This document shows positions 1,712-39,815 of a stretch of DNA of 64,000 bases, one piece after another. Positions within the stretch are counted from its first letter, which is position 1, and each line of letters begins with the position of its first letter. The translations under genes were made by a program, and so were the position numbers. This DNA is from Eledone cirrhosa. Taxonomy: Eukaryota. The notes under the pieces are model-generated. The model did no database searches. It was not told the origin of the DNA and was given only the letters and a program-made list of their open reading frames with translations. Location: NCBI GenBank assembly GCA_964016885.1, contig OZ024764.1:5084001-5148000 (forward strand), given 5' to 3'.

Positions 1712-3139
1712 AGCTATGGGCTGAGGATAAATGGGGCTACCCCAAATTAATAAATGAATATGAATCCGCGAGTTACCAAGCACCCATGCAAAGCTTTAAT
1801 TCAGAGACAGGAAGCATACACACCCCACTGCAAAAATTCACCCTTTCCCACGAGTGGTGGCAAATGCCCAAAACTCCGAGTTGGAACCATCAATGTAAGC
1901 ACAATGAAAGGAAGAGCAGGAGAAATTGTAGAGATGCTAGAGCGAAAGAAAATTGATGTATGCTGTGTGCAAGAGACTAGATGGAGAGCAGAGTCCGCTG
2001 GAGTCCTTGCAGGCAGAAGTCAGTGCTACCAATTTGTCTGGGTAGCAAATGACAACAGGATGGGAGGTGTAGCTATCCTATTAGCTGACAAATGGGTAGA
2101 TAAGGTAATCTCAGTGAACAGGGTGAATGCAAGAATAATGAAACTTGGACTAGTCCTGAATAAAACAATTGCCACAATAATATCAGCTTACGCACCCCAA
2201 TTGGGGTTGCCAGCTGACTATAGCGGGGAATTTAGTTTAGAGGTCGGTGTCCACCAGGGCTCTGTTCTTAGCCCACTCCTGTTCGTTGAAGTATTGCAAG
2301 CAATAACGGAGGTGATTATGACCGGTGCCCATGGGAACTCCTATATGCGGATCATCTCACACTTATAGCCGAATCTATGGTGGAACTATACTTGCTCAGT
2401 ATGTAGAAAGGAGTAGGCTGGCTGCAAAAGGCTTTCCCCTCAAAATGAAAAGCAGACTGTATGATGTGGGTATACGAATAGCAATGTTACATAGTAGTGA
2501 AACCTTGGCGCCGTCTGTGGAAGACTTGCATAGATTAGAAAGAAATGAAGCCTGCATGCTCCGATGGATGTGTAATAGTAATATACGCGAACGGCAAAGC
2601 ATAAATGAATTGAGAGAGTGACTGAGCATAAGAGGAATGAAATGCTGTGTGCAGGAGAGGAGGTTGCATTGGACATGTGATGCGTATGAAGGATGACAGC
2701 TGTATAAAAAGGTGTAGAGCAGTAGAAGTCGATGGAAGCCGTAGAGTGGGGAGACCCAAGAAGAGCTGGGATGAGGTGATAAAAGCCGACCTTACCCAGT
2801 TGCACCTCTCAAAGGCGATGACACAGGACCGTCACCTCTGGCATCAAGCAGTAATACAGAAGACCTGACTCCCCAGGGCTACAAGCGGAAGCTGAAGCGT
2901 ATGCTCCCACCCTCTCCGACTGTACAGTGGACGTATAGGCGCCACAGACAAAAAGCACCCAGGACTCACTGTAAATGAGGTTGGTGTTAGGAAGGGCATC
3001 CAGCTGTAGGAATCAAGCCAGAATCAGTTCCTGTATGAGCAAGACAAGGTCAGCTGAACAGACACTGCCCACAACAGGACAACCCGTCTAACCCATGCTA
3101 GCGTGGAAGAATGGACGTAAAACAGTGATGAAGATGATA
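1712..3139 (+). mobile_element. internally deleted RTE-clade LINE (APE N-terminus fused to RT middle and C-terminus, 3' UTR, (TGA)n-like tail)
   Basis: ORF 1754-2368: RVGTINV...DVCCVQETRW...GVAILL...ISAYAPQ (endonuclease) joined directly to VGVHQGSVLSPLLF (RT); downstream GHVMRM...GRPKKSW. Confidence 0.9.
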
Positions 3140-5260
3140 TATCATATATGCCAGTGTACAAGTTGACATTTGGAGCCTAAAAATATCTCTCCAAAACCAG
3201 GGGTCGACTTGTCTGCTGAATATAGTATGTTACCTTTACCACTGAGGGGTAAACAGTGAAACTGCCTGCCTAACACTTGTTGTACACCACTTACCATAAC
3301 TCTAGCAACCCACCACATTTATTTCTACTGAATCTCATATTTGTTAAGTTTAACGTAGAGATTATAGTAATATCAATGTCTTGCTGTAGCTTATAGGGTA
3401 GGTTACTGTTGGGTAGGTTACTGTAGCGTAGGTTACCATAGGGTAGGTTACTGTAGGGTAGGTTACGATAGGGCAGGATACTGTAGGGTAAGTTACTGGA
3501 GGGTAGGTTACCATAGGGTAGGTTACCGTAGGGTAGGTTACCATTGGGTAGGTTATTATAGGGTAGGTTACCACAGGGTAGGTGACCATAGAATAGGTTA
3601 CTGTAGGGTATTTTACCATAGGGTAGGTTACCTTATGGTAGGTTACCTTAAGGTAGGTTACCATAGGGTAAGTTACCATAGGGTAGGTTACCTTAGGGTA
3701 GGTGACCATAGTGTAGGCTACCATAGGTTAGGTTCTGTATGGTAGGTTAGGTTACTATAGGGTAGGTTACCATAGGGTAGGTTACGATAGGGTTAGTTAC
3801 CATAGGGTAGGTTACCATAGCGTAGGTTACTATTGGGTAGGTTACCATAGGGTAGGTTACTGTAGGTTAGGTTACGTAGGGTAGGTTACCATAGGGTAGG
3901 TTGCCATAGAGTAGGTTATTATAGGGTAGGTTACCATAAGGTAGATTACCTCAGGGTATGTTACCATAGGGTAGGTTACTGTAGGGTAGGTTACCATAGT
4001 GTAGGATACCTTAAATTAGGTTACCACAGGAAAAGTTACCATATGGTAGGTTACTGTAGGTTAGGTTACCATAGGGTAGGTTATCATAGGTTAGGTTACC
4101 AAAGGGTAGGTTACTATAGGTTGTTACCATTGGGTAGGTTACTGTAGGGTAACATAGGTTACCATAGTGTAGGTTAATATAACATAGGTCACCATAGTGT
4201 AGGTTACCTTAGATTAGGTTACCACAGGATAGGTTACCATATGGTAGGTTACTGTAGGTTAGGTCACCATAGGGTAGGTTACTATAGGGTAGGCTACTAT
4301 AGGTTGTTACCATAGGGTAGGTTACTATAGGTTGTTACCATAGGGTAGGTTACTATAGGTTGTTACCATAGAGTAGGTTACAATATGGTTGGTTACCATA
4401 GTGTAGGTTACTATAACATTGGTTACCATAGTGTAGGTTACCTTAATTTAGGTTACCATAGGTTAGGTTACCGTATCGTAGGTTACTGTAGGTTAGGTTA
4501 CAATAGGGTAGGTTACTATAGGGTAGGCTACCAATGATAGGTTATGATGGGTTAGGTTCCATAGGGTAGGTTACCACAGTATATGTTACCATATGGTAGG
4601 TTAGGTTACCATAGGGTAGGTCACCATAGTGTAGGTTACTTTAGATTAGGTTACCATAGGGTAGGTTACCACAGGATAAGTTACCATATGGTAGGTTACT
4701 ATAACATAGGTTACCAAAGTGTAGGTTTCTATAGGTTGTTACCATAGGGTAGGTTACTGTAGGGTAGGTTACTGTAAGGTAGGTTACCATAGGGTAGGAT
4801 ACTGTAGGGTAGGTTACCAGAGGGTAGGTTATTATAGTATAGGTTACCGTAGGGTAGGTTTCCATGAAGTAGGTGACCATAGGGTAGGTTACTATAAGTT
4901 AGGTTACCATAGGGTAGGTTTCCATGAAGTAGGTTACCACAGGGTAGGTTAACATAAATTAGGTTACCTTAGGGTAGGTTACCATAAGTTAGGTTACCAT
5001 ACGGTAGGTTACCATAGGTTTGTTAAGGTTAGGCTAGGCTGGTCTACACGGTGAGTTAAAACTCACTTGTGACTGTAGTGTTTTAGAAGAAGTGTCTTAA
5101 TCTTTCGTGCACCACTAAATTTTTTAACTATTTCCCCTGAAACTGCCTTATTTTGGGGAGGTTATCTTATCAATCGAATAGCGTCCTAAATCTAAATTAC
5201 ACCTCAGAATTTTAGGGGCCACGCTATGTACCGGATAGACTTGTACACCGGCATATATAT
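3140..5260. mobile_element. non-autonomous TIR DNA transposon (Tc2/pogo-like ends) enclosing the 15-bp minisatellite
   Basis: Left TATCATATATGCCAGTGTACAAGT versus right ACTTGTACACCGGCATATAT(GGTA); subterminal GTCGACTT-type motifs; TA context. Copies at 26597-28734, 33984-35744, 48445-50568, 55815-57575; truncated at 10473-11849, 36991-37580, 58822-59411. Confidence 0.65.
3393..5035. repeat. 15-bp minisatellite (GGTTACCATAGGGTA)n
   Basis: Degenerate tandem array; others at 10725-11695, 26850-28510, 34236-35525, 36991-37435, 48698-50345, 56067-57355, 58822-59265. Confidence 0.95.
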
Positions 5261-9217: not shown

Positions 9218-10472
9218 GCCATGGGCTGAGGATAAATGGGGCTACCCCAAATTAATAAATGAATATGAAACCGCGAGTTACCAAGCACCCATGCAAAGCT
9301 TTAATTCAGAGACAGGAAGCATACACACCCCACTGCAAAAATTCACCCTTTCCCACGAGTGGTGGCAAATGCCCAAAACTCCGAGTTGGAACCATCAATG
9401 TAAGCACAATGAAAGGAAGAGCAGGAGAAATTGTAGAGATGCTAGAGCGAAAGAAAATTGATGTATGCTGTGTGCAAGAGACTAGATGGAGAGCAGAGTC
9501 CGCTGGAGTCCTTGCAGGCAGAAGTCAGTGCTACCAATTTGTCTGGGTAGCAAATGACAACAGGATGGGAGGTGTAGCTATCCTATTAGCTGACAAATGG
9601 GTAGATAAGGTAATCTCAGTGAACAGGGTGAATGCAAGAATAATGAAACTTGGACTAGTCCTGAATAAAACAATTGCCACAATAATATCAGCTTACGCAC
9701 CCCAATTGGGGTTGCCAGCTGACTATAGCGGGGAATTTAGTTTAGAGGTCGGTGTCCACCAGGGCTCTGTTCTTAGCCCACTCCTGTTCGTTAAAGTATT
9801 GCAAGCAATAATGGAGGTGATTATGACCGGATGCCCATGGGAACTCCTATATGCGGATCATCTCACACTTATAGCCGAATCTATGGTGGAACTATACTTG
9901 CTCAGTATGTAGGAAAGGAGTAGGCTGGCTGCAAAAGGTTTTCCCCTCAAAATGAAAAGCAGACTGTATGATGTGGGTATACGAATAGCAATGTTACATA
10001 GTAGTGAAACCTGGGCGCCGTCTGTGGAAGACTTGCATAGATTAGAAAGAAACGAAGCCTGCATGCTCCGATGGATGTGTAATAGTAATATACGCAAACG
10101 GCAAAGCATAAATGAATTGAGAGAGTGACTGAGCATAAGAGGAATGAAATGCTGTGTGCAGGAGAGGATGTTGCATTGGACATGTGATGCGTATGAAGGA
10201 TGACAGCTGTATAAAAAGGTGTAGAGCAGTAGAAGTCGATGGAAGCCGTGGAGTGGGGAGACCCAAGAAGAGCTGGGATGAGGTGATAAAAGCCGGACTC
10301 ACTGTAAATGAGGTTGGTGTTAGGAAGGGCATCCAGCTGTAGGAATCAAGCCAGAATCAGTTCCTGTATGAGCAAGACAAGGTCAGCTGAACAGACACTG
10401 CCCACAACAGGACAACCCGTCTAACCCATGCTTGCGTGGAAGAATGGACGTAAAACAGTGATGAAGATGATA
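9218..10472 (+). mobile_element. internally deleted RTE LINE, copy 2
   Basis: ORF 9259-9912 near-identical to 1754-2368; YADH at the RT active site. Confidence 0.9.
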
Positions 10473-11849
10473 TATCATATATGCCAGTGTACTATTTGAC
10501 ATTTGGAGCCTAAAAATATCTCTCCAAAACCAGGGGTCGACTTGTCTGCTGAATATAGTATGTTACCTTTACCACTGAGGGGTAAACAGTGAAACTGCCT
10601 GCCTAACACTTGTTGTACACCACTTACCATAACTCTAGCAACCCACCACATTTATTTCTACTGAATCTCATATTTGTTAAGTTTAACGTAGAGATTATAG
10701 TAATATCAATGTCTTGCTGTAGCTTATAGGGTAGGATACTGTAGCGTAGGTTACCATAGGGCAAGTTACTGTAGGGTAGGTTACTATAGGGTAGGTTACC
10801 ATAGGGTAGGTTACTGTCTGGTAGGTTACTGTAGGGTAGGTTACTGTCTGGTAGGTTACCATAGGGTAGGTTACTGTATGGTAGGTTACTGTAGGGTAGG
10901 TTACTGTATGGTAGGTTACCATAGGGTAGGTTACTGTAGGTTAGGTTACTATAGGGTAGGTTACTATAGGGTAGGTTGCGATAGGGTATGTGACCATAGC
11001 GTAGGTTACTATAGGGTAGGTTACCATAGGGTAGGTTACTACAGAGTAGGTTATTATAGGGTAGGTTACCATAAGGTAGGTTATTATAGGGTAGGTTACC
11101 ATAGGGTAGATTACTATAGTGTAGGTTACCATAGGGTAGGTTACCATAGGGTAAGTTACCTCAGGGTAGGTTACTATAGGGTAGGTTACCATGGGGTAGG
11201 TTACCATAGGCTATATTATCATATGGTAGGTTACGGTAGGGTAGGTTACTATAACATAGGTTACCATAGGGTAGATTACTATAGGGTAGGTTACCATAGG
11301 GTAGGTTACCATGGGGTAGGTTACCATAGGCTATATTATCATATGGTAGGTTACTATACGGTAGGTTACTGTAGGGTAGGTTACCATAAGGTAGGTTACT
11401 GTAGGGTAGGTTACCATAGGGTAGGTTAAGGTAGGGTAGGTTACTATAACATAGGTTACCATAGTGTAGATTACCTTAAATTAGGCTACCATAGGGTAGG
11501 TTACTATAACATAGGTTACCATAGTGTAGGTTACCATAGGGTGGCTTACCATGGGTTAGGTTACTATAGGGTTGGTTGCCATAGAGTAGGTTACCATGGA
11601 ATAGGTTGCCATAGGGTATGTTACCATACCATAGGGCTGGTTATCATAGGGTAGGTTATTATAAGGTAGGTTACCATATGTTTGTTAAGGTTAGGCTAGG
11701 CTGGTCTACTCGGTGAGTTAAAACTCACTTGTGACTGTAGTGTTATAGAAGAAGTGTCTTAATCTTTAGTGCGCCACTAAATTTTTTAACTATTTCCCCT
11801 GAAACTGCCTTATTTTTTGGGTGTCGTCTTATGAATCGAATAGTGTCGT

Positions 11850-13867: not shown

Positions 13868-15712
13868 TCATCATCATCGTTTAATGTCCATCTTCTACGC
13901 TAGCATGGGTTTGGACGGGAATTTTCCCACTTGAGGCAAGATTGGTTATCTTGCACGTATAGGACTGTCTGGCAGGTTTTCTACGGCTGGATGCCCTTCC
14001 TAACACCAACCACGTTTACAGTGTGGACTGGGAGGTTTTTACCGTGTTACCTACACGGCCACATTACAGCGTGGACTGTGTTTTTTTTTGTCGTGACACC
14101 TACACGACCTCATTATTTCGGGCTGGATGTTGTGGTACCAACATAACTTTACATCGAGAGGGGTGGTGTGGATGGGGTGGGGGTAGTTGGGCGGGGGTGT
14201 ATTTTGGTAAGAGGTGCCTACTGAGTGTAGGTTTCGCTTTGCACTTAGGCAAGGCGGGTCTTCTGTATTACTGCATAGCGCCAAAGATCTCGGTCCAGTG
14301 ACATTGTCTTGGAGAGGTGTAAGTGTGTGAGATCGGAATTTATCAATTCGTCCCAGGGTTTTCTGGGTCTGCCTACTCCGAAACTACCATCTATTTTGAT
14401 CGCCCTGCACTTTTTTATACAGCTGTCGTCTTTCATGCGCATCACGTGACCATACCAACGTAGTCTTCTCTCGAGTAAACAACATCTGATCCCTCTTATT
14501 CCTAATTTCTCACTTAGTTCATTTATGCTTTGCCGTTCACGTATATTACTATTACACATCCAGCGGAGCATGCAAGCTTCGTTCCTCTCCAGTCTGCGTA
14601 TATGCTCTGCACACAATGCCCAGGTCTCACTGCCATGTAACATTGCTGTTCGTATACAGGCATCATACAGCCTGCCTTTCATTTTTAGAGAGAACCCTTT
14701 AGCGGCCAATAGTGGTATAATCTCTCTGAACTTTTTCCATCCAGTTCTGACTCTAGCTACTGTACTTTCAGAGCACCCTCCACCACTGCTGATTTTGTCA
14801 CCCAAGTAACGGAAGGTGTCCACTATATCTATAAAAGCATCTGTGCAATGGAATGAGCTAGTATTCTGTGGGCACTTTCCCGCTACTTATTGCACCTGAG
14901 CACCGGCCACATATAAAATCTATATTCTTAGTTAGCTTACCTGTGATCCCACTACATCTTTTATGCACCCACACTTTGCATTTGGGACATAAAAGGGAGT
15001 TTCTGCCTACTCCTTTCCTGAGCATGGCCATTTCCCAGATGGGATCAGTGCCCTATTTTCCCTCCTACATACTAGAACTTTAGTCTTAGGCAGGTTAATT
15101 TTAAGGCTTTTTGATTCTAGGCCATGCTTCCATGTTTCGAATTTCTTCTCTAGTTCAGCCATTGATTCAGCTATAAGCGTTAGATCATATGCGTATAGGA
15201 GTTCCCATGGGCAGCCACTCTTGAACTCCTCTGTTATAGCATGAAGGGCAATAATAAATAGTAGGGGGCTGAGGACGGAGCGCTGATGAACACCAACTTT
15301 TACGCTAAACTCTTCACTATATTCGTTGTTAATTCTAACCTTGCTGACTGTTTCTTTATACATGGCTTGTATAGCTCTCACAAGCCATTCATCAACACCT
15401 AGTTTTCTGAGAGCCCACCAGATAATGGGGCGTTGGACTCTGTTAAAGGCGTTCCCCAAGTGAAAAAAAGCTAAGTAAAGGGGTTTACTTTTAGCTAGGT
15501 ACTTCTCCCGTAGTTGTCATACAATGAAAAGAGCGTCTGTGATACTTTTACTTGACACAAACCCAAACTGCATTTCATCTAGATCAATTCTCCCTCTGAT
15601 TAGTTGCGCTATTACTTTTTCTGTGACCCTCATGAACTGGTCTATTAATTTAATGCCTCTATAGTTTCCCCTATCTAGGGCATCTCCTTTACCCTTGTAG
15701 CAGTTAATGATG
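13868..15712 (-). mobile_element. 5'-truncated RTE LINE (RT domain to tail)
   Basis: ORFs 15007-15459 (AFNRV, GVHQRSVLSPLLF, LLYAYD) and 14245-14823 (FRYLG, RRLRWYGHVMR); (CAT)n tail at ~13868. Confidence 0.9.
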
Positions 15713-16138
15713 ATGATATATATATAAAAGAATTAGGATTTCGCTTCAAGCATATCTTTATACAATATGTATAAATATTTTGTATCTCCAAAGAAATACG
15801 GTTTTAGGAAGCCTTAGCTCTGCAAACCCTGGGGGGGGGGGGGGGGGGGCTAACGTCCTCTGCTGATGTCCAGCAGAAGCAAGGGGGACAACCGTCTATG
15901 CATTTCAGGCTTAACTGGCCATCGTCAGGACAGTCCCGCTCACTGCTTGCGACTGCTGGCCAGTTAAGCATGAAATGCATAGACGGTTGTCCCCCTTGCT
16001 TCTGCTGGACACCACCAGAGGCCTTGAAACCTTAAGTCCCTTTTGCTCTGTGTATGAACAGAAATAAATAATGTAATATATATATATGTGTGTGTGTGTA
16101 TCTATTTATATATTTAACTATATTTTTTGTAATCACAG

Positions 16139-18199: not shown

Positions 18200-18341
18200 C
18201 AAAAACATATATATCTATGACTTTGTCTAGTTTGTGTATATGTAAATCTTTATATCGATTGTTCCTTATGTAGCACAGCCTTTCAGATTCCATCTTTGCG
18301 CACAAGTCTACAGCAAGCTGGTTGAAGAGTACTCTTGCATG
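18200..18341 (-). mobile_element. Helitron Rep/Hel fragment
   Basis: ARVLFNQLAVDLCAKMESERLCYIRNN matches the Helitron-like N-terminal motif LFQQFxVDxYxKIExxRLxYIRxNQ; it is cut by the adjacent RTE. Confidence 0.7.
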
Positions 18342-19860
18342 GTGGAACAGCAACGTAGTAAGTAAGGCAATCAAAGATATGAAGATGGGGAAGGCAACCG
18401 GTCCATCGGGTATAGCTGCCGAGATGCTGAAGGCATCTGGGTCTGTAGGTCACACTATAACCACACGTATTGTTAACCCGTTAATACTAGAAGGTGTCAT
18501 ACCAAAAGATTGGTGCAGTAGCATCATTGTCAACTGTTACAAAAGTAAAGGTGATGCACTAGATAGAGGAAACTATAGAGGTATAAAGCTGATGGACCAG
18601 GTCATGAAAGTAACAGAAAGAGTTATAGCACAGTTGATTAGGGACCGGGTGAAACTAGACGAGATGCAATTTGGGTTTGTACCAGGAAGAGGCACCACTG
18701 ATGCCCTCTTCCTTGTCAGGCAGTTACAGGAAAAGTACCTAGCTAAAAGTAAGCCACTCTACCTGGCATTTGTTGACCTTGAGAAAGCCTTTGACAGAGT
18801 TCCACGTGCTGTAATCTGGTAGGCTCTTAGAAAACTAGGAGTAGATGAATAGCTTGTGAAAGTGGTACAAGCCATGTATAGGGGAGCAGTCAGCAAAGTT
18901 AGGATTAGCAATGAGTATAGCGAGGAATTTAGCGTACAGGTTGGGGTCCACCAGGGCTCTGTTCTTAGGCCCCTCCTGTTCATCATTGTCCTGCAGGCAA
19001 TAACGGAGGACTTTAAGACCGGATGCCCATGGGAACTCCTGTATGCTGATGACCTCGCACTTATAGCTGAATCTATGGTAGAACTAGAGAAGAAATTCCA
19101 AACTTGGAAGCAGGGACTAGAAAGAAAGGGTCTCAAAGTCAACATGACAAAGACTAAGGTCCTTGTAAGTAGACGAGAAAACAGAACCCAGATCCCCTCA
19201 GGGAAATGGCCTTGCTCAGTATGTAGGAAAGGTGTAGGTAGGAACTCCATTCTCTGCCCCAAATGCAAACAATGAGTACACAAGAGATGTAGCGGGATCT
19301 CAGGAAGCTTAATTAAGAATGTAGGCTTCACATGCAGCAGCTGTGCTGGGACAGCAAGCAACAAACAGCCACAGGAAACAAGTACCACCAATCTCTGGGA
19401 GGGCTCTGTAGAAACAGTAGACAGCTTCTGCTACCTAGGTGACCGAATTAGCAGCGGAGGTGGGTGTTCAGAAAGTACAATAACTAGGGTAAGAATGGGA
19501 TGGAAGAAGTTTAGGGAACTACTATCACTGCTAGCTGCAAAAGGCCTCTCCCTCAAAATGAAAGGCAGACTGTATGATGCGTGTATCCGAACAGCGATGT
19601 TGCATGGTAGTGAGACCTGGGCGCTGAAGGTGGAAGACTTACGTAGATTAGAGAGAAACGAAGCCTGCGTAACAGTAATATACGCGAACGACAAAGCATA
19701 AATGAATTGAGAGACTGAGCATAAGAGGAATCAAATGCTGTGTGCAGGAGAGGCGGTTGCGCTGGTATGGACATGTGATGCGTATGAAGGATGACAGCTG
19801 CATAAAAAGTTGCAGAGCACTAGAAGTCGATGGAAACCACGGTGTGGGGAGACCCAAGAT
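18342..19860 (+). mobile_element. RTE LINE RT fragment with stops
   Basis: ORFs 18322-18822 (GKATGPSGI, NYRGIKL, QFGFVPGRGT, AFVDLEKAFDRV) and 18856-19275 (LLYADD, WPCSVCRKG). Confidence 0.92.
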
Positions 19861-21302: not shown

Positions 21303-21344
21303 GACTGATACAAAGGAGAGTACCGCTCTAGAAAAGAATGAGGA
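21303..21344 (+). CDS. 42-nt symmetric micro-exon, class A (TDTKESTALEKNE)
   Basis: CAG/GTAAGT borders, 42 nt, only phase 2 open. Confidence 0.65.
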
Positions 21345-21682
21345 GTAAGTTTTAGTTTTACATACTATCTAACCATTATTCTATCTGTTCCTTCCCGTTT
21401 CTCTCTCTCTTATATATATATATATAGTAAGATGTATTATTGGTTGTGTAAAACGGTCCAATAAATTTTTGTTAGCAATATTAAGTCCTCCACGCTTTTG
21501 TATATCTCCAATTCCATTCAAGGGAACAGCTAGATGATGTAAAACGGAGTATTTGTATCAAAATGAAAATCCAAAGGCAAGGTAAAATTTCCAATCATTT
21601 TAATCACGTCGTGATTGAAATGATTGGAAATCTTACCTTCCTTCGGATTTTCATTTTGATATATATATATATATATATATAT

Positions 21683-23341
21683 ATGAATATAGACATAGAA
21701 TATTCGAAAATATTCTGTATGTTTATAATAAACATTTTGAAGACCTAATCGCTATAGAATAGAATACGTCACGTATTACAATTAGATTCTCGACAAAAGC
21801 AAGGGAAGTAATCTACGCGTTTCATTCTTATTAGAAATCTTCAGGACTACATATCCAGTGCTTTTATCGAGAATGACACAGCTAGAGACTTATAGAATAC
21901 TTAGCTGTGTACAGGAACTGGTTTGAAAGAGCGGTTGCCGGTCCGGCAGAAATTAGAAATTGGAATAAATGCTCTGAAATAGCGATATATATGTGAATAT
22001 AGACATAGAATATTCGAAAATATTCTGTATGTTTATAATAAACATTTTGAAGACCTAATCGCTATAGAATAGAATACGTCACGTATTACAATTAGATTCT
22101 CGACAAAAGCAAGGGAAGTAATCTACGCGTTTCATTCTTATTAGAAATCTTCAGGACTACATATCCAGTGCTTTTATCGAGAATGACACAGCTAGAGACT
22201 TATAGAATACTTAGCTGTGTACAGGAACTGGTTTGAAAGAGCGGTTGCCGGTCCGGCAGAAATTAGAAATTGGAATAAATGCTCTGAAATAGCGATATAT
22301 ATGTGAATATAGACATAGAATATTCGAAAATATTCTGTATGTTTATAATAAACATTTTGAAGACCTAATCGCTATAGAATAGAATACGTCACGTATTACA
22401 ATTAGATTCTCGACAAAAGCAAGGGAAGTAATCTACGCGTTTCATTCTTATTAGAAATCTTCAGGACTACATATCCAGTGCTTTTATCGAGAATGACACA
22501 GCTAGAGACTTATAGAATACTTAGCTGTGTACAGGAACTGGTTTGAAAGAGCGGTTGCCGGTCCGGCAGAAATTAGAAATTGGAATAAATGCTCTGAAAT
22601 AGCGATATATATGTGAATATAGACATAGAATATTCGAAAATATTCTGTATGTTTATAATAAACATTTTGAAGACCTAATCGCTATAGAATAGAATACGTC
22701 ACGTATTACAATTAGATTCTCGACAAAAGCAAGGGAAGTAATCTACGCGTTTCATTCTTATTAGAAATCTTCAGGACTACATATCCAGTGCTTTTATCGA
22801 GAATGACACAGCTAGAGACTTATAGAATACTTAGCTGTGTACAGGAACTGGTTTGAAAGAGCGGTTGCCGGTCCGGCAGAAATTAGAAATTGGAATAAAT
22901 GCTCTGAAATAGCGATATATATGTGAATATAGACATAGAATATTCGAAAATATTCTGTATGTTTATAATAAACATTTTGAAGACCTAATCGCTATAGAAT
23001 AGAATACGTCACGTATTACAATTAGATTCTCGACAAAAGCAAGGGAAGTAATCTACGCGTTTCATTCTTATTAGAAATCTTCAGGACTACATATCCAGTG
23101 CTTTTATCGAGAATGACACAGCTAGAGACTTATAGAATACTTAGCTGTGTACAGGAACTGGTTTGAAAGAGCGGTTGCCGGTCCGGCAGGAATTAGAAAT
23201 TGGAATAAATGCTCTGAAATAGCGATATATATGTGAATATAGACATAGAATATTCGAAAATATTCTGTATGTTTATAATAAACATTTTGAAGACCTAATC
23301 GCTATAGAATAGAATACGTCACGTATTACAATTAGATTCTC
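21683..23341 (-). repeat. 310-bp tandem array (5.3 copies), each full unit with a minus-strand minimal hammerhead; Penelope pLTR/retrozyme-like
   Basis: Unit starts recur at 21991, 22301, 22611, 22921 and 23231; the copies are essentially identical and inserted in a (TA)n tract. Confidence 0.9.
21808..21850 (-). ncRNA. minimal type-I hammerhead ribozyme motif (further - copies 22118-22160, 22428-22470, 22738-22780, 23048-23090)
   Basis: Reverse complement of the motif at 23572-23614. Confidence 0.7.
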
Positions 23342-24393
23342 GACGTATTCTATTCTATAGCGATTAGGTCTTCAAAATGTTTATTATAAACATACAGAAT
23401 ATTTTCGAATATTCTATGTCTATATTCACATATATATCGCTATTTCAGAGCATTTATTCCAATTTCTAATTTCTGCCGGACCGGCAACCGCTCTTTCAAA
23501 CCAGTTCCTGTACACAGCTAAGTATTCTATAAGTCTCTAGCTGTGTCATTCTCGATAAAAGCACTGGATATGTAGTCCTGAAGATTTCTAATAAGAATGA
23601 AACGCGTAGATTACTTCCCTTGCTTTTGTCGAGAATCTAATTGTAATACGTGACGTATTCTATTCTATAGCGATTAGGTCTTCAAAATGTTTATTATAAA
23701 CATACAGAATATTTTCGAATATTCTATGTCTATATTCACATATATATCGCTATTTCAGAGCATTTATTCCAATTTCTAATTTCTGCCGGACCGGCAACCG
23801 CTCTTTCAAACCAGTTCCTGTACACAGCTAAGTATTCTATAAGTCTCTAGCTGTGTCATTCTCGATAAAAGCACTGGATATGTAGTCCTGAAGATTTCTA
23901 ATAAGAATGAAACGCGTAGATTACTTCCCTTGCTTTTGTCGAGAATCTAATTGTAATACGTGACGTATTCTATTCTATAGCGATTAGGTCTTCAAAATGT
24001 TTATTATAAACATACAGAATATTTTCGAATATTCTATGTCTATATTCACATATATATCGCTATTTCAGAGCATTTATTCCAATTTCTAATTTCTGCCGGA
24101 CCGGCAACCGCTCTTTCAAACCAGTTCCTGTACACAGCTAAGTATTCTATAAGTCTCTAGCTGTGTCATTCTCGATAAAAGCACTGGATATGTAGTCCTG
24201 AAGATTTCTAATAAGAATGAAACGCGTAGATTACTTCCCTTGCTTTTGTCGAGAATCTAATTGTAATACGTGACGTATTCTATTCTATAGCGATTAGGTC
24301 TTCAAAATGTTTATTATAAACATACAGAATATTTTCGAATATTCTATGTCTATATTCACATATATATCGCTATTTCAGAGCATTTATTCCAAT
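23342..24393 (+). repeat. inverted continuation of the 310-bp array (3.4 copies)
   Basis: Reverse complement of 22269-23320, separated from it by a 21-nt spacer (23321-23341). Confidence 0.9.
23572..23614 (+). ncRNA. minimal type-I hammerhead ribozyme motif (further + copies 23882-23924, 24192-24234)
   Basis: GTAGTC-CTGAAGA-t TTCT aata AGAA t-GAAA-CGCG-TA-GATTAC: stem I GTAGTC/GATTAC, core CUGANGA...GAAA...UH, palindromic CGCG in place of stem III. Pair 10.1-11.1 is a non-canonical U.U. Confidence 0.7.
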
Positions 24394-25167
24394 ATATATA
24401 TATATATATATGTATATATATGACTCCTCTTATAAACCACGTTGGCTATTATGACTCTCTCTTTCCCTCTCTATGTTGGCTATTATGACTCTCTCTCTCT
24501 CCCTCCCTCCCTCTCTATGTTGGCTATTATGACTCTCTCTCTCTCTATGTTGGCTATAATGACTCTCTCTCTCTATGTTGGCTATAATGACTCTCTCTCT
24601 CTATCTATGTTGGCTATTATGTCTCTCTCTCTCTATCTATGTTGGCTATTATGTCTCTCTCTCTCTCTATCTATGTTGGCTAATATGACTCTCTCTCTCT
24701 CTCTCTATGTTGGCTATTATGACTCTATCTCTCTCTATGTTGGCTATTATGTCTCTCTCTCTCTATCTATGTTGGCTATTATGACTCTCTCTCTCTATTT
24801 ATGTTGGCTATTATGTCTCTCTCTCTCTATCTATGTTGGCTATTATGTCTCTCTCTGTTCAAGCTTTATGAAGTTAGTTGAACATCTTCAAAGTCCTCCC
24901 ATATTCGCCTTGTCTAATATGCGTTCTTGTACCTGATTATTTCCCCCAAATCTCCTGGGATGTTATAAACCATGATGGCTACCTATCTCACAATTTCTCT
25001 CCTGCCCACCCCCTCACACCACCATAGTCTATTCGACCAATCAAACCTCAGAAACATGTCCCCACCCATTACCAACCCCAACAAACTCTGCCATTACTAC
25101 TACTTCTACTTTTCTTCTAGCCCTTACCAGCCCCAACAAACCCTGACATTATTACTACTATTGTCCT

Positions 25168-26596: not shown

Positions 26597-29500
26597 TATC
26601 ATATATGCCAGTGTACAAGTTGACATTTGGAGCCTAAAAATATCTCTCCAAAACCAGGGGTCGACTTGTCTGCTGAATATAGTATGTTACCTTTACCACT
26701 GAGGGGTATACAGTGAAACTGCCTGCCTAACACTTGTTGTACACCACTTACCATAACTCTAGCAACCCACCACATTTATTTCTACTGAATCTCATATTTG
26801 TTAAGTTTAACGTAGAGATTATAGTAATATCAATGTCTTGCTGTAGCTTATAGGGTAGGTTACTGTTGGGTAGGTTACTGTAGCGTAGGTTACCATAGGG
26901 TAGGATAGTGTCTGGTAGGTTACCATAGGGTAGGTTACGATAGGGCAGGATACTGTAGGGTAAGTTACTGGAGGGTAGGTTACCATAGGGTAGGTTACCG
27001 TAGTGTAGGTTACCATTGGGTAGGTTATTATAGGGTAGGTTACCACAGGGTAGGTGACCATAGAATAGGTTACTGTAGGGTATTTTACCATAGGGTATGT
27101 TACCATAGGGTAGGTTACCTTATGGTAGGTTACCTTAAGGTAGGTTACCATAGGGTAAGTTACCATAGGGTAGGTTACCTTAGGGTAGGTGACCATAGTG
27201 TAGGCTACCATAGGTTAGGTTCTGTATGGTAGGTTAGGTTACTATAGGGTAGGTTACGATAGGGTTAGTTACCATAGGGTAGGTTACCATAGCGTAGGTT
27301 ACTATTGGGTAGGTTACCATAGGGTAGGTTACTGTAGGTTAGGTTACGTAGGGTAGGTTACCATAGGGTAGGTTGCCATAGAGTAGGTTATTATAGGGTA
27401 GGTTACCATAAGGTAGATTACCTCAGGGTATGTTACCATATGGTAGGTTACCATATGGTAGGTTACCATAGGGTAGGTTACTGTAGGGTAGTTTACCATA
27501 GTGTAGGATACCTTAAATTAGGTTACCACAGGAAAAGTTACCATATGGTAGGTTACTGTAGGTTAGGTTACCATAGGGTAGGTTATCATAGGTTAGGTTA
27601 CCAAAGGGTAGGTTACTATAGGTTGTTACCATTGGGTAGGTTACTGTAGGGTAACATAGGTTACGATAGTGTAGGTTAATATAACATAGGTCACCATAGT
27701 GTAGGTTACCTTAGATTAGGTTACCACAGGATAGGTTACCATATGGTAGGTTACTGTAGGTTAGGTCACCATAGGGTAGGTTACTATAGGGTAGGCTACT
27801 ATAGGTTGTTACCATAGGGTAGGTTACTATAGGTTGTTACCATAGAGTAGGTTACAATATGGTTGGTTACCATAGTGTAGGTTACTATAACATTGGTTAC
27901 CATAGTGTAGGTTACCTTAATTTAGGTTACCATAGGTTAGGTTACCGTATCGTAGGTTACTGTAGGTTAGGTTACAATAGGGTAGGTTACTATAGGGTAG
28001 GCTACCAATGATAGGTTATGATGGGTTAGGTTCCATAGGGTAGGTTACCACAGTATATGTTACCATATGGTAGGTTAGGTTACCATAGGGTAGGTCACCA
28101 TAGTGTAGGTTACTTTAGATTAGGTTACCATAGGGTAGGTTACCACAGGATAAGTTACCATATGGTAGGTTACTATAACATAGGTTACCAAAGTGTAGGT
28201 TTCTATAGGTTGTTACCATAGGGTAGGTTACTGTAGGGTAGGTTACTGTAAGGTAGGTTACCATAGGGTAGGATACTGTAGGGTAGGTTACCAGAGGGTA
28301 GGTTATTATAGTATAGGTTACCGTAGGGTAGGTTTCCATGAAGTAGGTGACCATAGGGTAGGTTACTATAAGTTAGGTTACCATAGGGTAGGTTTCCATG
28401 AAGTAGGTTACCACAGGGTAGGTTAACATAAATTAGGTTACCTTAGGGTAGGTTACCATAAGTTAGGTTACCATACGGTAGGTTACCATAGGTTTGTTAA
28501 GGTTAGGCTAGGCTGGTCTACTCGGTGAGTTAAAACTCACTTGTGACTGTAGTGTTTTAGAAGAAGTGTCTTAATCTTTCGTGCACCACTAAATTTTTTA
28601 ACTATTTCCCCTGAAACTGCCTTATTTTGGGGAGGTTATCTTATCAATCGAATAGCGTCCTAAATCTAAATTACACCTCAGAATTTTAGGGGCCACGCTA
28701 TGTACCGGATAGACTTGTACACCGGCATATATATATATGCAAAGAGAGCGAGAGAAACAGCGGGAGTGAGAGAGATACATTAAAACAATAACAGAGGTCT
28801 GACTGGAGAATTTACTTTAGAATTTTAAGAGAAAAGAGGAAGGTTTCAGACTTCTGGAATTCCTTCACGAAAATGTCCTATTTATCTGTAACACAAACTT
28901 CAAAAAATGAGACAACCACTTAATAACATATAGATCATGTGAGCCCACCAGCTAGATAGATTTCCTTGTTACCATAAGACAGAGTGACTGTTATAAACAC
29001 AAAGTCCCTCCCTAGTGAAGAATGCACCTCCCAACATACCTTAGGAGACAAACTGGAAGAAAAGATTATAGATCAAAATCAAAAGGTCTTAAAGTCAATT
29101 TGGTAAAGACTAAAGTTCTAGTAAGTAGAAAGGAAAACAGGGCCCAGATCTCTTCAGGTAAACTGTCCTGCTCAGTGTGCAGAAAAGGAGTAGGTAGAAA
29201 TTCCATCCTATGTCCCATATAGAAATGATGGGTACACAAAAGATGTCGTGGGATCTCAGGGAGGCTAACAAAGAACGTAGCTTCTACATGTGGCCAATGA
29301 ACAGGAGATGGAAATATCAAGAGCTCTCGGGTTACAATCTCCTTCAAATACCCGAAAGTCTCTGTAGAGGTGGTAGATAGTTTCTGTTACCTAGGTGACT
29401 AAATCAGCAGTGGAGTAGGGTGGTCCCAAAACTCAGTAACAAGAGTGAGATTAGATTGGAGAAAGTGCAGGGATCTACTACTACTGCTAACAACAAAAAG

Positions 29501-33983: not shown

Positions 33984-35761
33984 TATCATATATGCTAGTG
34001 TACTATTTGACATTTGGAGCCTAAAAATATCTCTCCAAAACCAGGGGTCGACTTGTCTGCTGAATATAGTATGTTACCTTTACCACTGAGGGGTAAACAG
34101 TGAAACTGCCTGCCTAACACTTGTTGTACACCACTTACCATAACTCTAACAACCCACCACATTTATTTCTACTGAATCTCATATTTGTTAAGTTTAACGT
34201 AGAGATTATAGTAATATCAATGTCTTGCTGTAGCTTATAGGGTAGGTTACCATACGGTAGGGTACTGTAGGGTAGGTTACCATAGGGCAGGTTACTGTAG
34301 GGTAGGATACTGTCTGGTAGGTTACCATAGGGTAGGTTACTGTAGGGTAGGTTACTATAGGGTAGGTTACTGTAGGGTAGGTTACTGTAGGGTAGGTTAC
34401 TATAGGGTAGGTTACTGTATGGTAGATTACTCTAGGCTAGGTTACCATAGGGTAGGTTACTGTAGTGTAGGTTACCATAGGGTAGGTTACCACAGAGTAG
34501 GTGACCATAGGGTATGTTATTATAGGGTAGGTAACTGTAGGTTAGGTTACTGTAGGGTAGGTTACCTTATGGTAAGTTACTATAGGGTAGGTTACCATAG
34601 TGTAGGTTACCTTATGGTAAGTTACTATAGGGTAGGTTACCATAGGGTAGGTTACCTTAGTGTAGGTAAGAATAGGGTAGGTTACCATAGGTTAGGTTAC
34701 CATAGGTTAGGTTACTGTAGGGTAGGTTACCATAAGGTAGGTTACCATAGGGTAGGTTACTGTAGGGTAGGTTACCATAGGGTAGGTTACTGTAGGTAGG
34801 TTACCGTAGGTTAGGTTACTGTAGGGTAGGTTAACATAGGGTATGTTAGCATAGGGTTGGTTACCATAGGTTAAGTTCATATAGGTTGTTACCATATTGT
34901 AGGTTACTGTAGGGTAGGTTGCTATAGGGTAGGTTATCGTAGAGTAGGTTACCATAAGGTAGGTTACCGTAGGGTAGGTTACTATAGGGTAGGGTATCAT
35001 AGGATAGGTTACCATAGAGTAGGTTACCTTAGGGTAGTTTACTATAAGATAGGTTACCATAGTGTAGCTTACCATAGGGTAGGTTGTTACCATAGGCAAG
35101 GTTACTATAGGGTGGGTTACCATAGGGTAGTTTATGATATGGTTGGTTACCATAGTGTAGGTTACTATAACATAGGTTACCATAGTGTAGGATACCTTAG
35201 ATTAGGTTACCACAGGATAGGTTACTGTAGGTTAGGTTACCATATGGTAGGTTACCATAGGTTAGGTTAGCAATGGGTAGGTTACTATAGGTTGTTACCA
35301 TAAGGTAGGTTACTGTATGGTGGGTTACCATAGGGTAGGGTACCATAAAGTAGGTTATTATAGTGTAGGTTACCTTAGGATAGGTAACCATAGGGTAGGT
35401 TACTATGGGGTAAGTTACCATAGGGTAGGTTCCCATAGGGTAGGTTAACATAAGCTAGGTTACCTCAGGGTAGGTTACCATACCATAAAGTAGGTTACCA
35501 TAGGTTTGTTAAGGTTAGGCTAGGCTGGTTTACTCGGTGAGTTAAAACTCACTTGTGACTGTAGTGTTTTAGAAGTGTCTCAATCTTTCATGCACCACTA
35601 AATTTTTTAACTATTTCCCCTGAAACTGCCTTATTTTTGGGGGTCATCTTATCAATCGAATAGCGTCCTAAATCTAAATTATACTTCAGAATTTTAGGGG
35701 CCGACTTATGTACCGGATAGACTTGTACACCGGCATATATGGTATATATATATATATGCAT

Positions 35762-37579: not shown

Positions 37580-38524
37580 CGTATAGGACTATCTGGCATG
37601 TTTTCTATGGCTGGATGCCCTTCCTAACACCAACCACGTTTACAGTGTGGGGACTGGGAGGTTTTTACCATGTTAACTACACGGCCAATTTACAGCGTGG
37701 ACTGTGTGTTTTATTGTCATGACACCTACACAACCTCATTTATTTAGGACTGGATGTTGTGTGACCAACATAATTTTACAGAGATGGGGGTGGGAGTAGT
37801 GGGGTGGGGGCGTATATTTGGTTAAGAGGTGCCTACTGACTGTAGGTTTCGCTTTGTACTTAGGCAAGGGTGGTCTTCTGTATTACTGCGTAGCGCCAAA
37901 GATCTTGGTTCAGTGACATTGTCTTGGAGAGGTGTAAGTGTGTGAGATCGGAATTTATCAATTCGTCCCAGGGTTTTCTGGGTCTGCCTACTCCGTGGCT
38001 ACCATCTATTTTGATCGCCCTGCACTTTTTTATACAGCTGTCGTCTTTCATGCGCATCACGTGACCATACCAACGTAGTCTTCTCTCGAGTACACAACAT
38101 CTGATCCCTCTTATTCCTAATTTCTCACTTAGTTCATTTATGCTTTGCCGTTCACGTATATTACTATTACACATCCAGCGGAGCATGCAAACTTCATTCC
38201 TCTCCAGTCTGCGTATATCCTCTGCACACAATGCCCAAGTCTCACTGCCATGTAACATTGTTGTTCGTATGCAGGCATCATACAGCCTGCCTTTCATTTT
38301 TAGAGAGAACCCTTTAGCGGCCAATCGTACAATGAAAAGAGCGTCTGTGATACTTTTACCTGACACAAACCCAAACTGCATTTCATCTAGATCAATTCTC
38401 TCTCTGATTAGTTGCGCTATTACTTTTTCTGTGACCCTCATGAACTGGTCAATTAATTTAATGCCTCTATAGTTTCCCCTATCTAGGGCATCTCCTTTAC
38501 CCTTGTAGCAGTTAATGATGATGA
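37580..38524 (-). mobile_element. RTE LINE fragment with in-frame internal deletion (copy 59411-60355)
   Basis: ORF 37860-38573 joins ...DALFIVR directly to LAAKGFSL..., a deleted version of 13868-15712. Confidence 0.88.
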
Positions 38525-38651
38525 TATATATATAAAAGAAATAGGATTTCGCTTCAAGCATATCTTTATACAATATGTATAAATATTTTGTATCTCCAAA
38601 GAAATACGGTTTTAGGAAGCCTTAGCTCTGCAAACCCTGGGGGGCTAACGT

Positions 38652-38816
38652 CCTCTGGTGATGTCCAGCAGAAGCAAGGGGGACAACCGTCTATGCATTT
38701 CAGGCTTAACTGGCCATCGTCAGGACAGTCCCTCCCACTGCTTGCGACTGCTGGCCAGTTAAGCATGAAATGCATAGACGGTTGTCCCCCTTGCTTCTGC
38801 TGGACATCACCAGAGG
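38652..38816. repeat. 165-bp inverted repeat (65-bp arms, 35-nt loop) upstream of class B exons
   Basis: CCTCTGGTGATGTCCAGCAGAAG...AACTGGCCA / TGGCCAGTT...CTTCTGCTGGACATCACCAGAGG with one mismatch; copies at 15857, 41432, 44171, 60483, 63261. Confidence 0.92.
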
Positions 38817-38964: not shown

Positions 38965-39550
38965 GTAAGTGTTACCTTAACATACTGTCTAACCATTGTT
39001 TAATCTGCTCCTCCCTCTACCTCTCCCTTTATACACACACACACATATATACCCCTATATATATATGTATACACACACACACACAAATATATACACATAT
39101 ATACATATATATATACACACATATATATATAATCACATATATATATACATATATACAAGCGAGACACGGCCTGCTGACCAATCTCGCCTTAAGTGGGACA
39201 AAACCGTCCAACCCATGCTAGCATGGAAGATGGACTTTAAATGATGATGATATATACACACTGACACATATATATATACATATATATATACACATATATA
39301 TACGCATATATTTATATATATATATGAGTTCAAGTCCGCCGAGGTTAACTTTGCCTTTCATCTTTACGAGGTCGATAAAATAAAGTACCAGTGGTGTACT
39401 GGGGTAATCGCTGGCCTTGTGCCAAAAGTAGAAACTATAATTATATATATATAACCAAAGATTAATATAGTTCGTTGATTGCTCAACGAATACAGTTGTA
39501 CAATAGATTAGAAGAACTCAACAGTGAAAGTTTTCCTGGACTTTTTAATA

Positions 39551-39815
39551 TTAACAAATGAAAAATATTCTCATAATCAAAATATATACTTTATTATATA
39601 CATTTCAAAGGTATATGACATACCTCTACGGTCTTGATTCTTCAATTCCAGTATTGCAGTCACTGCCAATACTGGAATTGAAGAATCAAGACCGTAGCGC
39701 TATGTCATAATCATATATTTTGTCTGATGAGGACGTACTGAAAAAACAACAATATATATAATATAGTATATATTTTGATTATGCGAATATTTTTCATTTG
39801 TTAACATTTTGAATA

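What the first reader, a model, noticed from the sequence alone, without database searches (positions are those of the whole stretch)
21683..24393. 310-bp tandem array carrying minimal hammerhead ribozymes (retrozyme / Penelope pLTR-like)
Each full unit contains GTAGTC-CUGAAGA-stem II-GAAA-CGCG-UA-GATTAC. This is a type-I hammerhead whose stem III is reduced to one pair plus a palindromic CGCG, the form known from Penelope-like elements and metazoan non-LTR retrozymes that cleave as dimers. There are eight motifs at 310-nt spacing (5 on -, 3 on +). Cleavage would release 310-nt monomers able to circularise. Near-identical units and absence from sister cassettes indicate a very recent insertion into a (TA)n tract. 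The three + strand motifs would lie in the intron of the putative micro-exon pre-mRNA.
Basis: partly seen in the sequence, partly recalled or inferred. Interest (0 to 1): 0.75.

Follow-up and report, generated by a model that had tools for sequence, protein, structure and literature searches.

The report
Hammerhead retrozyme with Penelope-type insertion scars
A 310-base non-coding unit carrying a predicted self-cutting RNA motif sits as two back-to-back tandem arrays inside a TA microsatellite that is empty in eight sister copies, so it is likely a young parasite pasted in by a Penelope-type jumping gene: a known kind of element, but an unusually clean record of how it likely moves.

Summary
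Observation confirmed: eight identical type I hammerhead motifs at 310-nt spacing (5 minus, 3 plus). The array is two arms joined 5'-to-5' by a 3-bp overlap (5.36 and 3.39 units, one substitution), both 3' ends in a (TA)n tract that is empty in 8 of 8 sister cassettes. One 3' end is 26-35 nt longer, like the Penelope-like element (PLE) 'tail'. The main end falls on the unit's own (AT)4 patch and recurs in 10 contigs of run X1, where the family is very abundant. All units share an allele held by 0.9% of X1 depth, pointing to one template. An older hammerhead family in the window keeps 12 of 12 pairs and the same U·U, so that mismatch is unlikely to be fatal. Best reading: a non-LTR retrozyme mobilised by PLE reverse transcriptase-endonuclease from a circular or multimeric RNA. 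Cleavage, circles and the PLE partner are untested; the active dimer fold is boundary-dependent in silico. Read-through from the host intron would fold into a long hairpin that hides the ribozymes. Near-identical units under 17 other organism labels may be contamination or horizontal spread; unresolved.

The parts
21684..23344 (-). Left arm, 1661 nt = 5.36 units; 5' end at unit position 20 (23344), 3' end at unit position 130 (21684), or 139 (21675) if one mismatch and shared TA letters are allowed. Unit position 1 = first base after the predicted cut.
23342..24393 (+). Right arm, 1052 nt = 3.39 units; 5' end at unit position 44, 3' end at position 163-165
23342..23344 (.). 5'-to-5' junction of the two arms; 3 bases (GAC) belong to both
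24359..24393 (+). Extension of the right 3' end over the left 3' end: 35 nt (26 nt if the left end is position 139); candidate PLE 'tail'
   Evidence: tail of 30-40 bp described in PMC8557442 and PMC11167929
23572..23614 (+). Type I hammerhead motif: 6-bp stem I, CUGAAGA, U·U plus 4-bp stem II, GAA, ACGCGU palindrome, predicted cut after 23608
23882..23924 (+). Hammerhead motif, predicted cut after 23918
24192..24234 (+). Hammerhead motif, predicted cut after 24228
23048..23090 (-). Hammerhead motif, predicted cut after 23054 (minus strand)
22738..22780 (-). Hammerhead motif
22428..22470 (-). Hammerhead motif
22118..22160 (-). Hammerhead motif
21808..21850 (-). Hammerhead motif
23609..23918 (+). 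One cut-to-cut monomer (310 nt); predicted circular fold -67.8 kcal/mol, 58% paired, no reading frame over 59 codons
23548..23636 (+). Predicted long extension of stem I that closes each hammerhead into a hairpin (-31.9 kcal/mol for 23545-23640)
21659..21683 (.). Left part of the (TA)n target tract
24394..24421 (.). Right part of the (TA)n target tract
21303..21344 (+). Upstream 42-nt micro-exon-like segment (AG...GTAAG); the insertion lies in the putative intron that follows it (host context, not part of the element)

Best explanation
This is a young insertion of a 310-nt non-coding, hammerhead-bearing repeat (a non-LTR retrozyme), two tandem arrays joined back to back inside a (TA)n tract, likely written there by the reverse transcriptase-endonuclease of a Penelope-like element. 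Shown: the geometry, the empty sister sites, the motif, the shared rare haplotype, the recurring 3' end. Inferred steps: (1) a tandem locus elsewhere is transcribed; (2) neighbouring hammerheads would pair through ACGCGU, swap stem I strands and cut after GUA, probably slowly or with protein help, releasing 310-nt monomers; (3) a host ligase would close them into circles, in which stem III cannot form, so they would be stable; (4) a PLE protein would nick both strands of (TA)n and prime cDNA internally, once at the unit's own (AT)4 patch (positions 130-139) and once about 30 nt further on (163-165); (5) each cDNA would run several times round the circle (or along a multimer), 5.4 and 3.4 rounds, and the two truncated ends would join through 3 shared bases. 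In host read-through RNA the two arms would pair into a hairpin of about 1 kb that hides the ribozymes.
For: Arms 5'-to-5' with both 3' ends in (TA)n, right end 26-35 nt longer; PMC8557442 describes an inverted 5'-truncated copy, a 30-40-bp tail at one end and (TA)n bias for PLEs (passages), and PMC11167929 ties the tail to two internal RT start sites and AT-rich cleavage. 8 of 8 sister sites empty, flanks 215/219 to 194/198 aligned bases identical, against one substitution inside 2.7 kb. In run X1, 647 contigs lie on the unit; the best-supported loose end is at position 139 followed by (AT)n (10 contigs), another at 170 followed by (TA)n (1 contig); positions 132-139 are the longest TA run of the unit. 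All 9 occurrences of position 20 carry G, an allele with 3,950 of 428,585 depth in X1 (0.9%), so both arms come from one template lineage. The 5 variable sites listed spare the structure: N7, two loop II bases, U·U to A-U, G·U to A-U. Against the older window family 12 of 12 pairs are kept, 6 with changes on both sides. Circular fold z = -4.05, 0 of 150 shuffles as stable.
Against: No autonomous PLE was seen: no whole genome is held, and 29 of the 61 frames of 100+ codons in 1-46,500 (repeat-derived and duplicate frames left out) gave only Exo_endo_phos and RVT_1 fragments, no GIY-YIG. The active double-hammerhead fold is the minimum-energy structure in only 7 of 28 transcript boundaries and lies 1.4-10.8 kcal/mol higher in 21 of 28; it was absent from all 6 longer transcripts tried. 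Rfam support is weak. 8 of 9 Xenopus retrozyme dimers did not cleave in vitro (10.64898/2026.07.22.740005), and the hammerhead of the anole PLE needed protein and was dispensable for insertion in vitro. The X1 loose ends are short (median 12 nt), only 6 of 38 are shown, and an expanded internal (AT)n could mimic them; a third cluster at position 154 (6 contigs) looks like a deletion variant. The covariation count rests on 2 distinct sequences (11 of 500 shuffles reach it). The antisense strand folds as well as the sense strand (z = -4.29). Identical units do not separate a circle from a multimer or from later DNA-level expansion.
Confidence: 0.72

Rival explanations
1. A PLE enzyme inserted a short back-to-back seed (little more than one unit per arm) copied from linear RNA, and the arrays then grew at DNA level by unequal crossing-over; ribozyme cleavage and circles play no part.
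For: Each arm begins and ends at different unit positions (20 to 130, 44 to 165), so a seed would carry a direct repeat able to expand. The 2026 preprint favours local amplification of a pLTR-derived unit. Hammerhead mutants did not affect insertion of the anole PLE in vitro. The active fold is boundary-dependent.
Against: Both arms would have had to expand separately while gaining one substitution in 2.7 kb and while 8 sister sites stayed empty. The family's listed variants keep the hammerhead and its long stem, which suggests selection at the RNA level.
Confidence: 0.17
2. The unit is a viroid-like RNA circle that moves between hosts and is reverse-transcribed into their genomes; this locus is one integration.
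For: 20 of 24 listed runs, under 18 organism labels and 17 studies, hold 56-97% of the unit's sampled words. In X10 and X11 the unit is one 340-nt contig (310 + 30, the signature of a closed cycle in these assemblies) with only 4 differences each.
Against: Every difference in X10 and X11 is an allele that also segregates in X1; neither run shows a flank; depth is 13.8 and 34.2 against hundreds of thousands in X1; one holder is a 4-million-letter run; 0 of 12.8 million raw reads from another sample of organism B lie on the unit (about 1 to 9 reads expected per genomic unit for genomes of 5 to 0.5 Gb, with the tool's caveat that the organism's presence in that run was not shown). A tandem DNA repeat also assembles as a cycle. 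Carry-over of a very abundant repeat between libraries explains all of this. No match in viral, prokaryote or metagenome collections.
Confidence: 0.07
3. An assembly or library artefact (fold-back chimera) or an ordinary satellite whose hammerhead look is chance.
For: Long perfect inverted repeats can come from fold-back chimeras (general knowledge); the junction itself was not checked in reads, since the stretch laid began at 23342; Rfam match is below threshold.
Against: The flanks are not mirrored: left and right flanks continue the host cassette exactly as in 8 empty sisters; the arms start and end at different unit positions; 0 of 20,000 shuffles give the motif; covariation with a second family.
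Confidence: 0.04

Closest known systems
Animal non-LTR retrozymes (Cervera and de la Pena 2020, PMC7229834; Li, Clavereau and Pollet 2026, 10.64898/2026.07.22.740005)
   Same: Tandem non-coding unit in the 150-450-bp range, GC under 50%, one type I hammerhead per unit with weak stem III, highly self-paired predicted circle, no LTR or protein; U·U at the base of stem II as in axolotl HHR_Amex2.
   Different: Two arrays in opposite orientation with unequal 3' ends in a (TA)n tract; the words inverted, tail and microsatellite do not describe retrozyme insertions in the main text of either paper (supplements not seen). Expression and circles not shown here.
Pseudo-LTR hammerheads and insertion structure of EN+ Penelope-like elements (Neptune, Poseidon, Naiad; PMC4209133, PMC8557442, PMC11167929)
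   Same: Palindromic stem III needing a partner; inverted 5'-truncated copy joined at the 5' end; one end longer by about 30 nt; microsatellite target; dual hammerheads on opposite strands were noted for Schistosoma PLE remnants.
   Different: No RT-EN frame; both arms are multimers of a small unit; stem II is 4 bp over U·U instead of the long helix II with G10.1-C11.1 of the minimal PLE motif; the main start site matches the target by 8-10 nt, whereas the anole PLE starts at a site not homologous to the cut DNA.
Non-autonomous Chlamys elements such as MRC1 (PMC8557442, passage)
   Same: Non-coding PLE dependants that insert as multicopy head-to-tail arrays.
   Different: Green algal, mostly without canonical hammerheads; here an animal-type element with a hammerhead in every unit.

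Membership tests
Type I hammerhead ribozyme | Core CUGANGA / GAAA / UH with stems I and II in type I topology | tested here: met
   weak Rfam HH9 alignment over the whole model
Type I hammerhead ribozyme | Standard pair at 10.1-11.1 | tested here: not met
   U·U in all 8 copies; A-U in 17% of X1 depth and in X11; an active U·U precedent in PMC7229834
Type I hammerhead ribozyme | Stem III able to form (in cis or as a dimer) | tested here: inconclusive
   Not in a single motif (pair probability 1e-5); ACGCGU self-duplex -9.5 kcal/mol; double-hammerhead fold is the minimum in 7 of 28 boundaries
Type I hammerhead ribozyme | Site-specific self-cleavage | not testable with these tools
   needs transcription assay
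Animal non-LTR retrozyme | Tandem non-coding repeats of 150-450 bp, GC under 50%, hammerhead in consecutive units | tested here: met
   310 bp, GC about 0.34, 5 and 3 consecutive motifs, longest frame 59 codons
Animal non-LTR retrozyme | Highly self-paired predicted circular monomer | tested here: met
   -67.8 kcal/mol, z -4.05, 0 of 150 shuffles
Animal non-LTR retrozyme | Dispersed multicopy family, insertion into new sites | tested here: met
   647 contigs in X1; 8 of 8 sister sites empty
Animal non-LTR retrozyme | Expressed as linear and circular monomer RNA | not testable with these tools
   the one run search listed no holder on record as RNA, which says nothing either way
Animal non-LTR retrozyme | Sequence kinship with the pLTR of a PLE in the same genome | not testable with these tools
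   no genome held; no GIY-YIG among 29 window frames scanned
Autonomous EN+ Penelope-like element | Single ORF with RT and GIY-YIG endonuclease | tested here: not met
   no frame over 59 codons in the unit
PLE-type insertion | Inverted 5'-truncated copy joined at the 5' end | tested here: met
PLE-type insertion | 30-40-bp tail at one end only | tested here: inconclusive
   26-35 nt here depending on shared TA letters; X1 ends at 139 (10 contigs) and 170 (1 contig), 31 apart; 32 loose ends not shown
PLE-type insertion | AT-rich or (TA)n target | tested here: met
Plant LTR retrozyme | Type III hammerhead in LTRs, PBS and PPT, 4-bp TSD | tested here: not met
   type I topology, tandem units, no LTR pair; definition
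tRNA-derived SINE | tRNA-like head with Pol III A and B boxes | tested here: not met
   ARAGORN 0 genes; no exact A or B box on either strand with recalled consensus patterns

The most novel reading that the evidence does not exclude
The 310-nt unit is a hammerhead RNA circle that is spreading right now between unrelated animal species (near-identical under 18 organism labels), and this locus records one integration in which a Penelope-type enzyme copied a single circle 5.4 and 3.4 times from the two nicked strands, priming on the circle's own (AU)4 patch: a retroviroid-like agent of animals.
Probability: 0.1. Interest if true: 0.88.

Novelty: new member of a known kind. Interest (0 to 1): 0.5.

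Why it matters
Which enzyme moves animal retrozymes, and whether the template is a circle, is still open: the papers read name PLEs as candidates from co-occurrence and kinship of sequence and say the mechanism remains to be shown. This locus offers the missing kind of evidence, the scars of one fresh insertion with eight pre-insertion controls beside it: inverted 5' junction, unequal 3' ends, (TA)n target, one template haplotype. A very abundant, nearly uniform family makes the question testable by counting ends genome-wide. The back-to-back layout also predicts self-silencing in read-through RNA, which would explain how such an element is tolerated in an intron.

Tried and rejected
Own genome: none held, so no copy count or PLE partner search. 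Rfam at gathering score: 0 matches in 64 kb. Exact-pattern scans for the hammerhead region: 0 in viral contigs, 0 in prokaryote genomes, 0 in metagenomes. Run search: no RNA holder listed. Earlier findings: nothing by sequence, by place or by a second word set; one architectural parallel by words. Coding role: rejected, longest frame 59 codons. tRNA or Pol III head: not found. My first result that the double hammerhead is the minimum-energy fold did not survive a boundary test and is reported as boundary-dependent. Horizontal transfer from the run list alone: not accepted after laying 4 of the 24 runs. An in-script search for inverted repeats printed nothing and was repeated with the repeat finder. 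The Lunse et al. paper on dimer-cleaving PLE hammerheads is not held; I saw it only as cited in a review. Literature searches for a described retrozyme with these insertion marks or in cephalopods found none, but the library lacks most subscription papers and I read no supplements.
Full report
OBSERVATION. The window holds two 310-bp arrays, 21675-23344 (5.4 copies) and 23342-24393 (3.4 copies), which are reverse complements of each other. Eight identical hammerhead cores lie 310 nt apart, five on the minus and three on the plus strand. Each has a 6-bp stem I, CUGAAGA, a U·U over a 4-bp stem II, GAA and the palindrome ACGCGU, with the predicted cut after the A at 23608. A type I descriptor that I wrote for this class hits the unit and 0 of 20,000 shuffles. 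Rfam finds nothing at gathering score and a weak full-length HH9 match at 16 bits, E 0.59. The arrays differ by one substitution (23190) and one boundary mismatch (21683).

GEOMETRY. Numbering the unit from the first base after the cut, the plus arm runs from position 44 (23342) to 163-165 (24393), and the minus arm from position 20 (23344) to 130 (21684), or 139 (21675) if one mismatch and shared TA letters are allowed. The arms therefore meet 5' to 5', sharing three bases, and both 3' ends point outward into a (TA)n tract; the right end is 26-35 nt longer. The same tract is empty in 8 of 8 sister cassettes (973, 7566, 8608, 31057, 32099, 46442, 52892, 53930), whose left flanks differ from the filled one by 4-5 substitutions in about 200 bases. 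The insertion is thus younger than the cassette duplications, and since the flanks are not mirrored it is not a simple fold-back chimera (the junction was not checked in reads). PMC8557442 (passages seen) lists for PLE insertions an inverted 5'-truncated copy, a 30-40-bp tail at one end and a bias for microsatellites; PMC11167929 (parts 1-2 of 4 read) shows cleavage of AT-rich DNA on both strands and two internal RT start sites whose spacing equals the tail. The match to this locus is my inference.

THE FAMILY. The run search listed 24 runs; 20 hold half or more of the sampled words, under 18 organism labels and 17 studies; none is on record as RNA. I laid 4 of the 24 on 23342-23708. In X1 (organism A, possibly the window's own source and so not independent) 647 contigs lie on the unit, 307 at 99% or more, with summed depth up to about 640,000 while several single pieces have depth 11-48: a very abundant, uniform family, though the tool warns that depth is no copy number. 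Five variable sites are listed: N7 of the core, two loop II bases, U10.1 to A (restoring a pair; 57,180 of 333,111) and G to A at 23628, where G·U becomes A-U in the long stem I extension. The window's G is held by 3,950 of 428,585 depth (0.9%), yet all 9 occurrences in both arms carry it: one template lineage made both arms. Of 38 loose ends 6 are shown; the best supported is at position 139 followed by (AT)n (10 contigs, median 12 loose letters), one at 170 is followed by (TA)n (1 contig), and one at 154 (6 contigs) looks like a deletion variant. Positions 132-139 are the longest TA run in the unit, so the main end coincides with the one patch that could pair with a nicked (TA)n primer. An expanded internal (AT)n in some copies could mimic part of this signal.

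OTHER ORGANISMS. X10 and X11 each hold one contig of 340 nt, with a joint that goes back 310 in X11; 30-mer terminal repeats mark circular contigs in these assemblies (10.1101/2024.07.30.605881, passages). Each differs from the window unit at 4 sites, all alleles found in X1; depth is 13.8 and 34.2 and no flank is seen. Raw reads from another sample of organism B gave 0 of 12.8 million (about 1 to 9 reads expected per unit for assumed genomes of 5 to 0.5 Gb; the tool calls this no test unless the organism is shown in the run). One holder, X13, has only 4 million letters. Carry-over of an abundant repeat fits best, but close relatives at low coverage or true horizontal spread are not excluded. 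Pattern scans of viral, prokaryote and metagenome collections gave 0 matches.

IS THE RIBOZYME PLAUSIBLE? A second, older hammerhead family lies in the window (minus 15928, 38723, 60554). Aligned with the array motif, all 12 pairs of stems I, II and the palindrome are kept, 6 with changes on both sides; with 2 distinct sequences this is modest (11 of 500 shuffles reach it; slid partners pair in 27-50% of cells). That family has the same U·U at the base of stem II, and the axolotl HHR_Amex2 with such a U·U cleaves, better as a dimer (PMC7229834, parts 2-4 of 6 read). A single motif cannot form stem III (pair probability 1e-5). In 23545-23945 the unconstrained minimum-energy fold is the double hammerhead, -108.5 against -101.3 kcal/mol, with stem III probabilities 0.89-0.99. 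This is not robust: it is the minimum in 7 of 28 boundary choices, 1.4-10.8 kcal/mol above it in 21, and absent from 6 of 6 longer transcripts. Each motif first closes into its own -31.9 kcal/mol hairpin, so strand exchange is needed; slow or protein-assisted cleavage is the fair prediction, in line with low activity of PLE motifs (PMC4209133, parts 1-2 of 4 read), protein dependence in the anole element and 1 of 9 Xenopus dimers cleaving (10.64898/2026.07.22.740005, parts 1-3 of 5 read). The cut-to-cut monomer folds as a circle at -67.8 kcal/mol (z -4.05, 0 of 150 shuffles; the antisense strand is as stable) and has no frame over 59 codons.

HOST CONTEXT. A plus-strand transcript meets the antisense arm first; folding 22730-23945 gives -1063.7 kcal/mol with 589 pairs across the junction, against -312.6 for the arms folded apart, and the hammerhead core is paired with its complement. 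Read-through RNA would thus hide the ribozymes and form long double-stranded RNA; only transcripts starting inside an arm could yield monomers (six complete ones). No promoter was identified. The RT fragments in the window are of the Exo_endo_phos / RVT_1 kind, and no GIY-YIG was found in 29 of 61 long frames scanned. The repeat landscape is animal-like; a cephalopod host is a recalled guess that I did not test.

MECHANISM. Shown: motif, geometry, empty sites, shared rare allele, recurring end. Inferred: transcription of a tandem source, dimer cleavage, ligation by a host enzyme (RtcB circularised axolotl and mussel monomers in vitro), PLE-driven nicking of (TA)n on both strands, internal priming at two sites about 30 nt apart, more-than-unit copying, and joining of the truncated ends by 3 shared bases (confidence 0.72). 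Rivals: short PLE-made seed plus DNA-level expansion (0.17), an inter-host RNA circle (0.07), artefact or chance (0.04).

COMPARISON AND NOVELTY. It meets the sequence-level definition of an animal non-LTR retrozyme; expression, cleavage and kinship to a resident PLE could not be tested. It is not an autonomous PLE, but it is inserted like one. The family kind is known, and the PLE link has been proposed from co-occurrence and phylogeny (PMC7761336 and PMC6765202, passages). I found no description of retrozyme arrays with inverted junction, tail and (TA)n target in the two main papers (word searches) or in nine library searches; supplements were not seen and may show such cases, and non-autonomous multicopy Chlamys insertions are a precedent in algae. 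An earlier unchecked note from this scan describes a ribozyme-free tandem element with similar marks in another genome. Verdict: new member of a known kind, with a useful mechanistic record; interest 0.5.

Noticed in passing
window 15857-16021, 38652-38816 and the copy around 60554: An older back-to-back hammerhead element: 65-nt inverted arms, one complete type I motif (palindrome AUGCAU, U·U at the base of stem II) and one truncated copy; shares a 9-nt pyrimidine-rich motif just 3' of the cut site with the array unit, a possible recognition signal.
   Followed up: partly
window 39547-39808, with copies around 42504 and 61555: Nested inverted repeats (58 and 43 nt) next to (TA)n with a CUGAUGA...GAAA core that fails my hammerhead descriptor; possibly a third, decayed family of the same kind.
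   Followed up: partly
window 21550-21667 and the eight sister cassettes: The (TA)n target directly follows a 118-nt imperfect palindrome of unknown origin.
   Followed up: no
window 7232-63571, plus strand: Thirteen micro-exon-like segments (42 or 30 nt, same phase, AG...GTAAG) in duplicated cassettes; most read as Ser/Thr/acidic-rich peptides, suggesting a repetitive protein growing by cassette duplication.
   Followed up: partly
window 3393-5018, 10725-11678, 26850-28492, 34237-35482, 48698-50327, 56068-57313: Long arrays of a 15-bp G-rich unit with strong strand skew (telomere-like look), up to 109 copies.
   Followed up: no
runs X4-X20, X10 and X11 laid: The unit appears near-identical under 17 other organism labels, as a flankless 340-nt cyclic contig in both such runs laid; if carry-over, it is a handy marker of cross-library contamination in public data.
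   Followed up: partly
window 1754-2365, 9259-9909, 15010-15516, 18274-19272, 37863-38621: Decayed LINE-type fragments (Exo_endo_phos, RVT_1) inside the cassettes.
   Followed up: no
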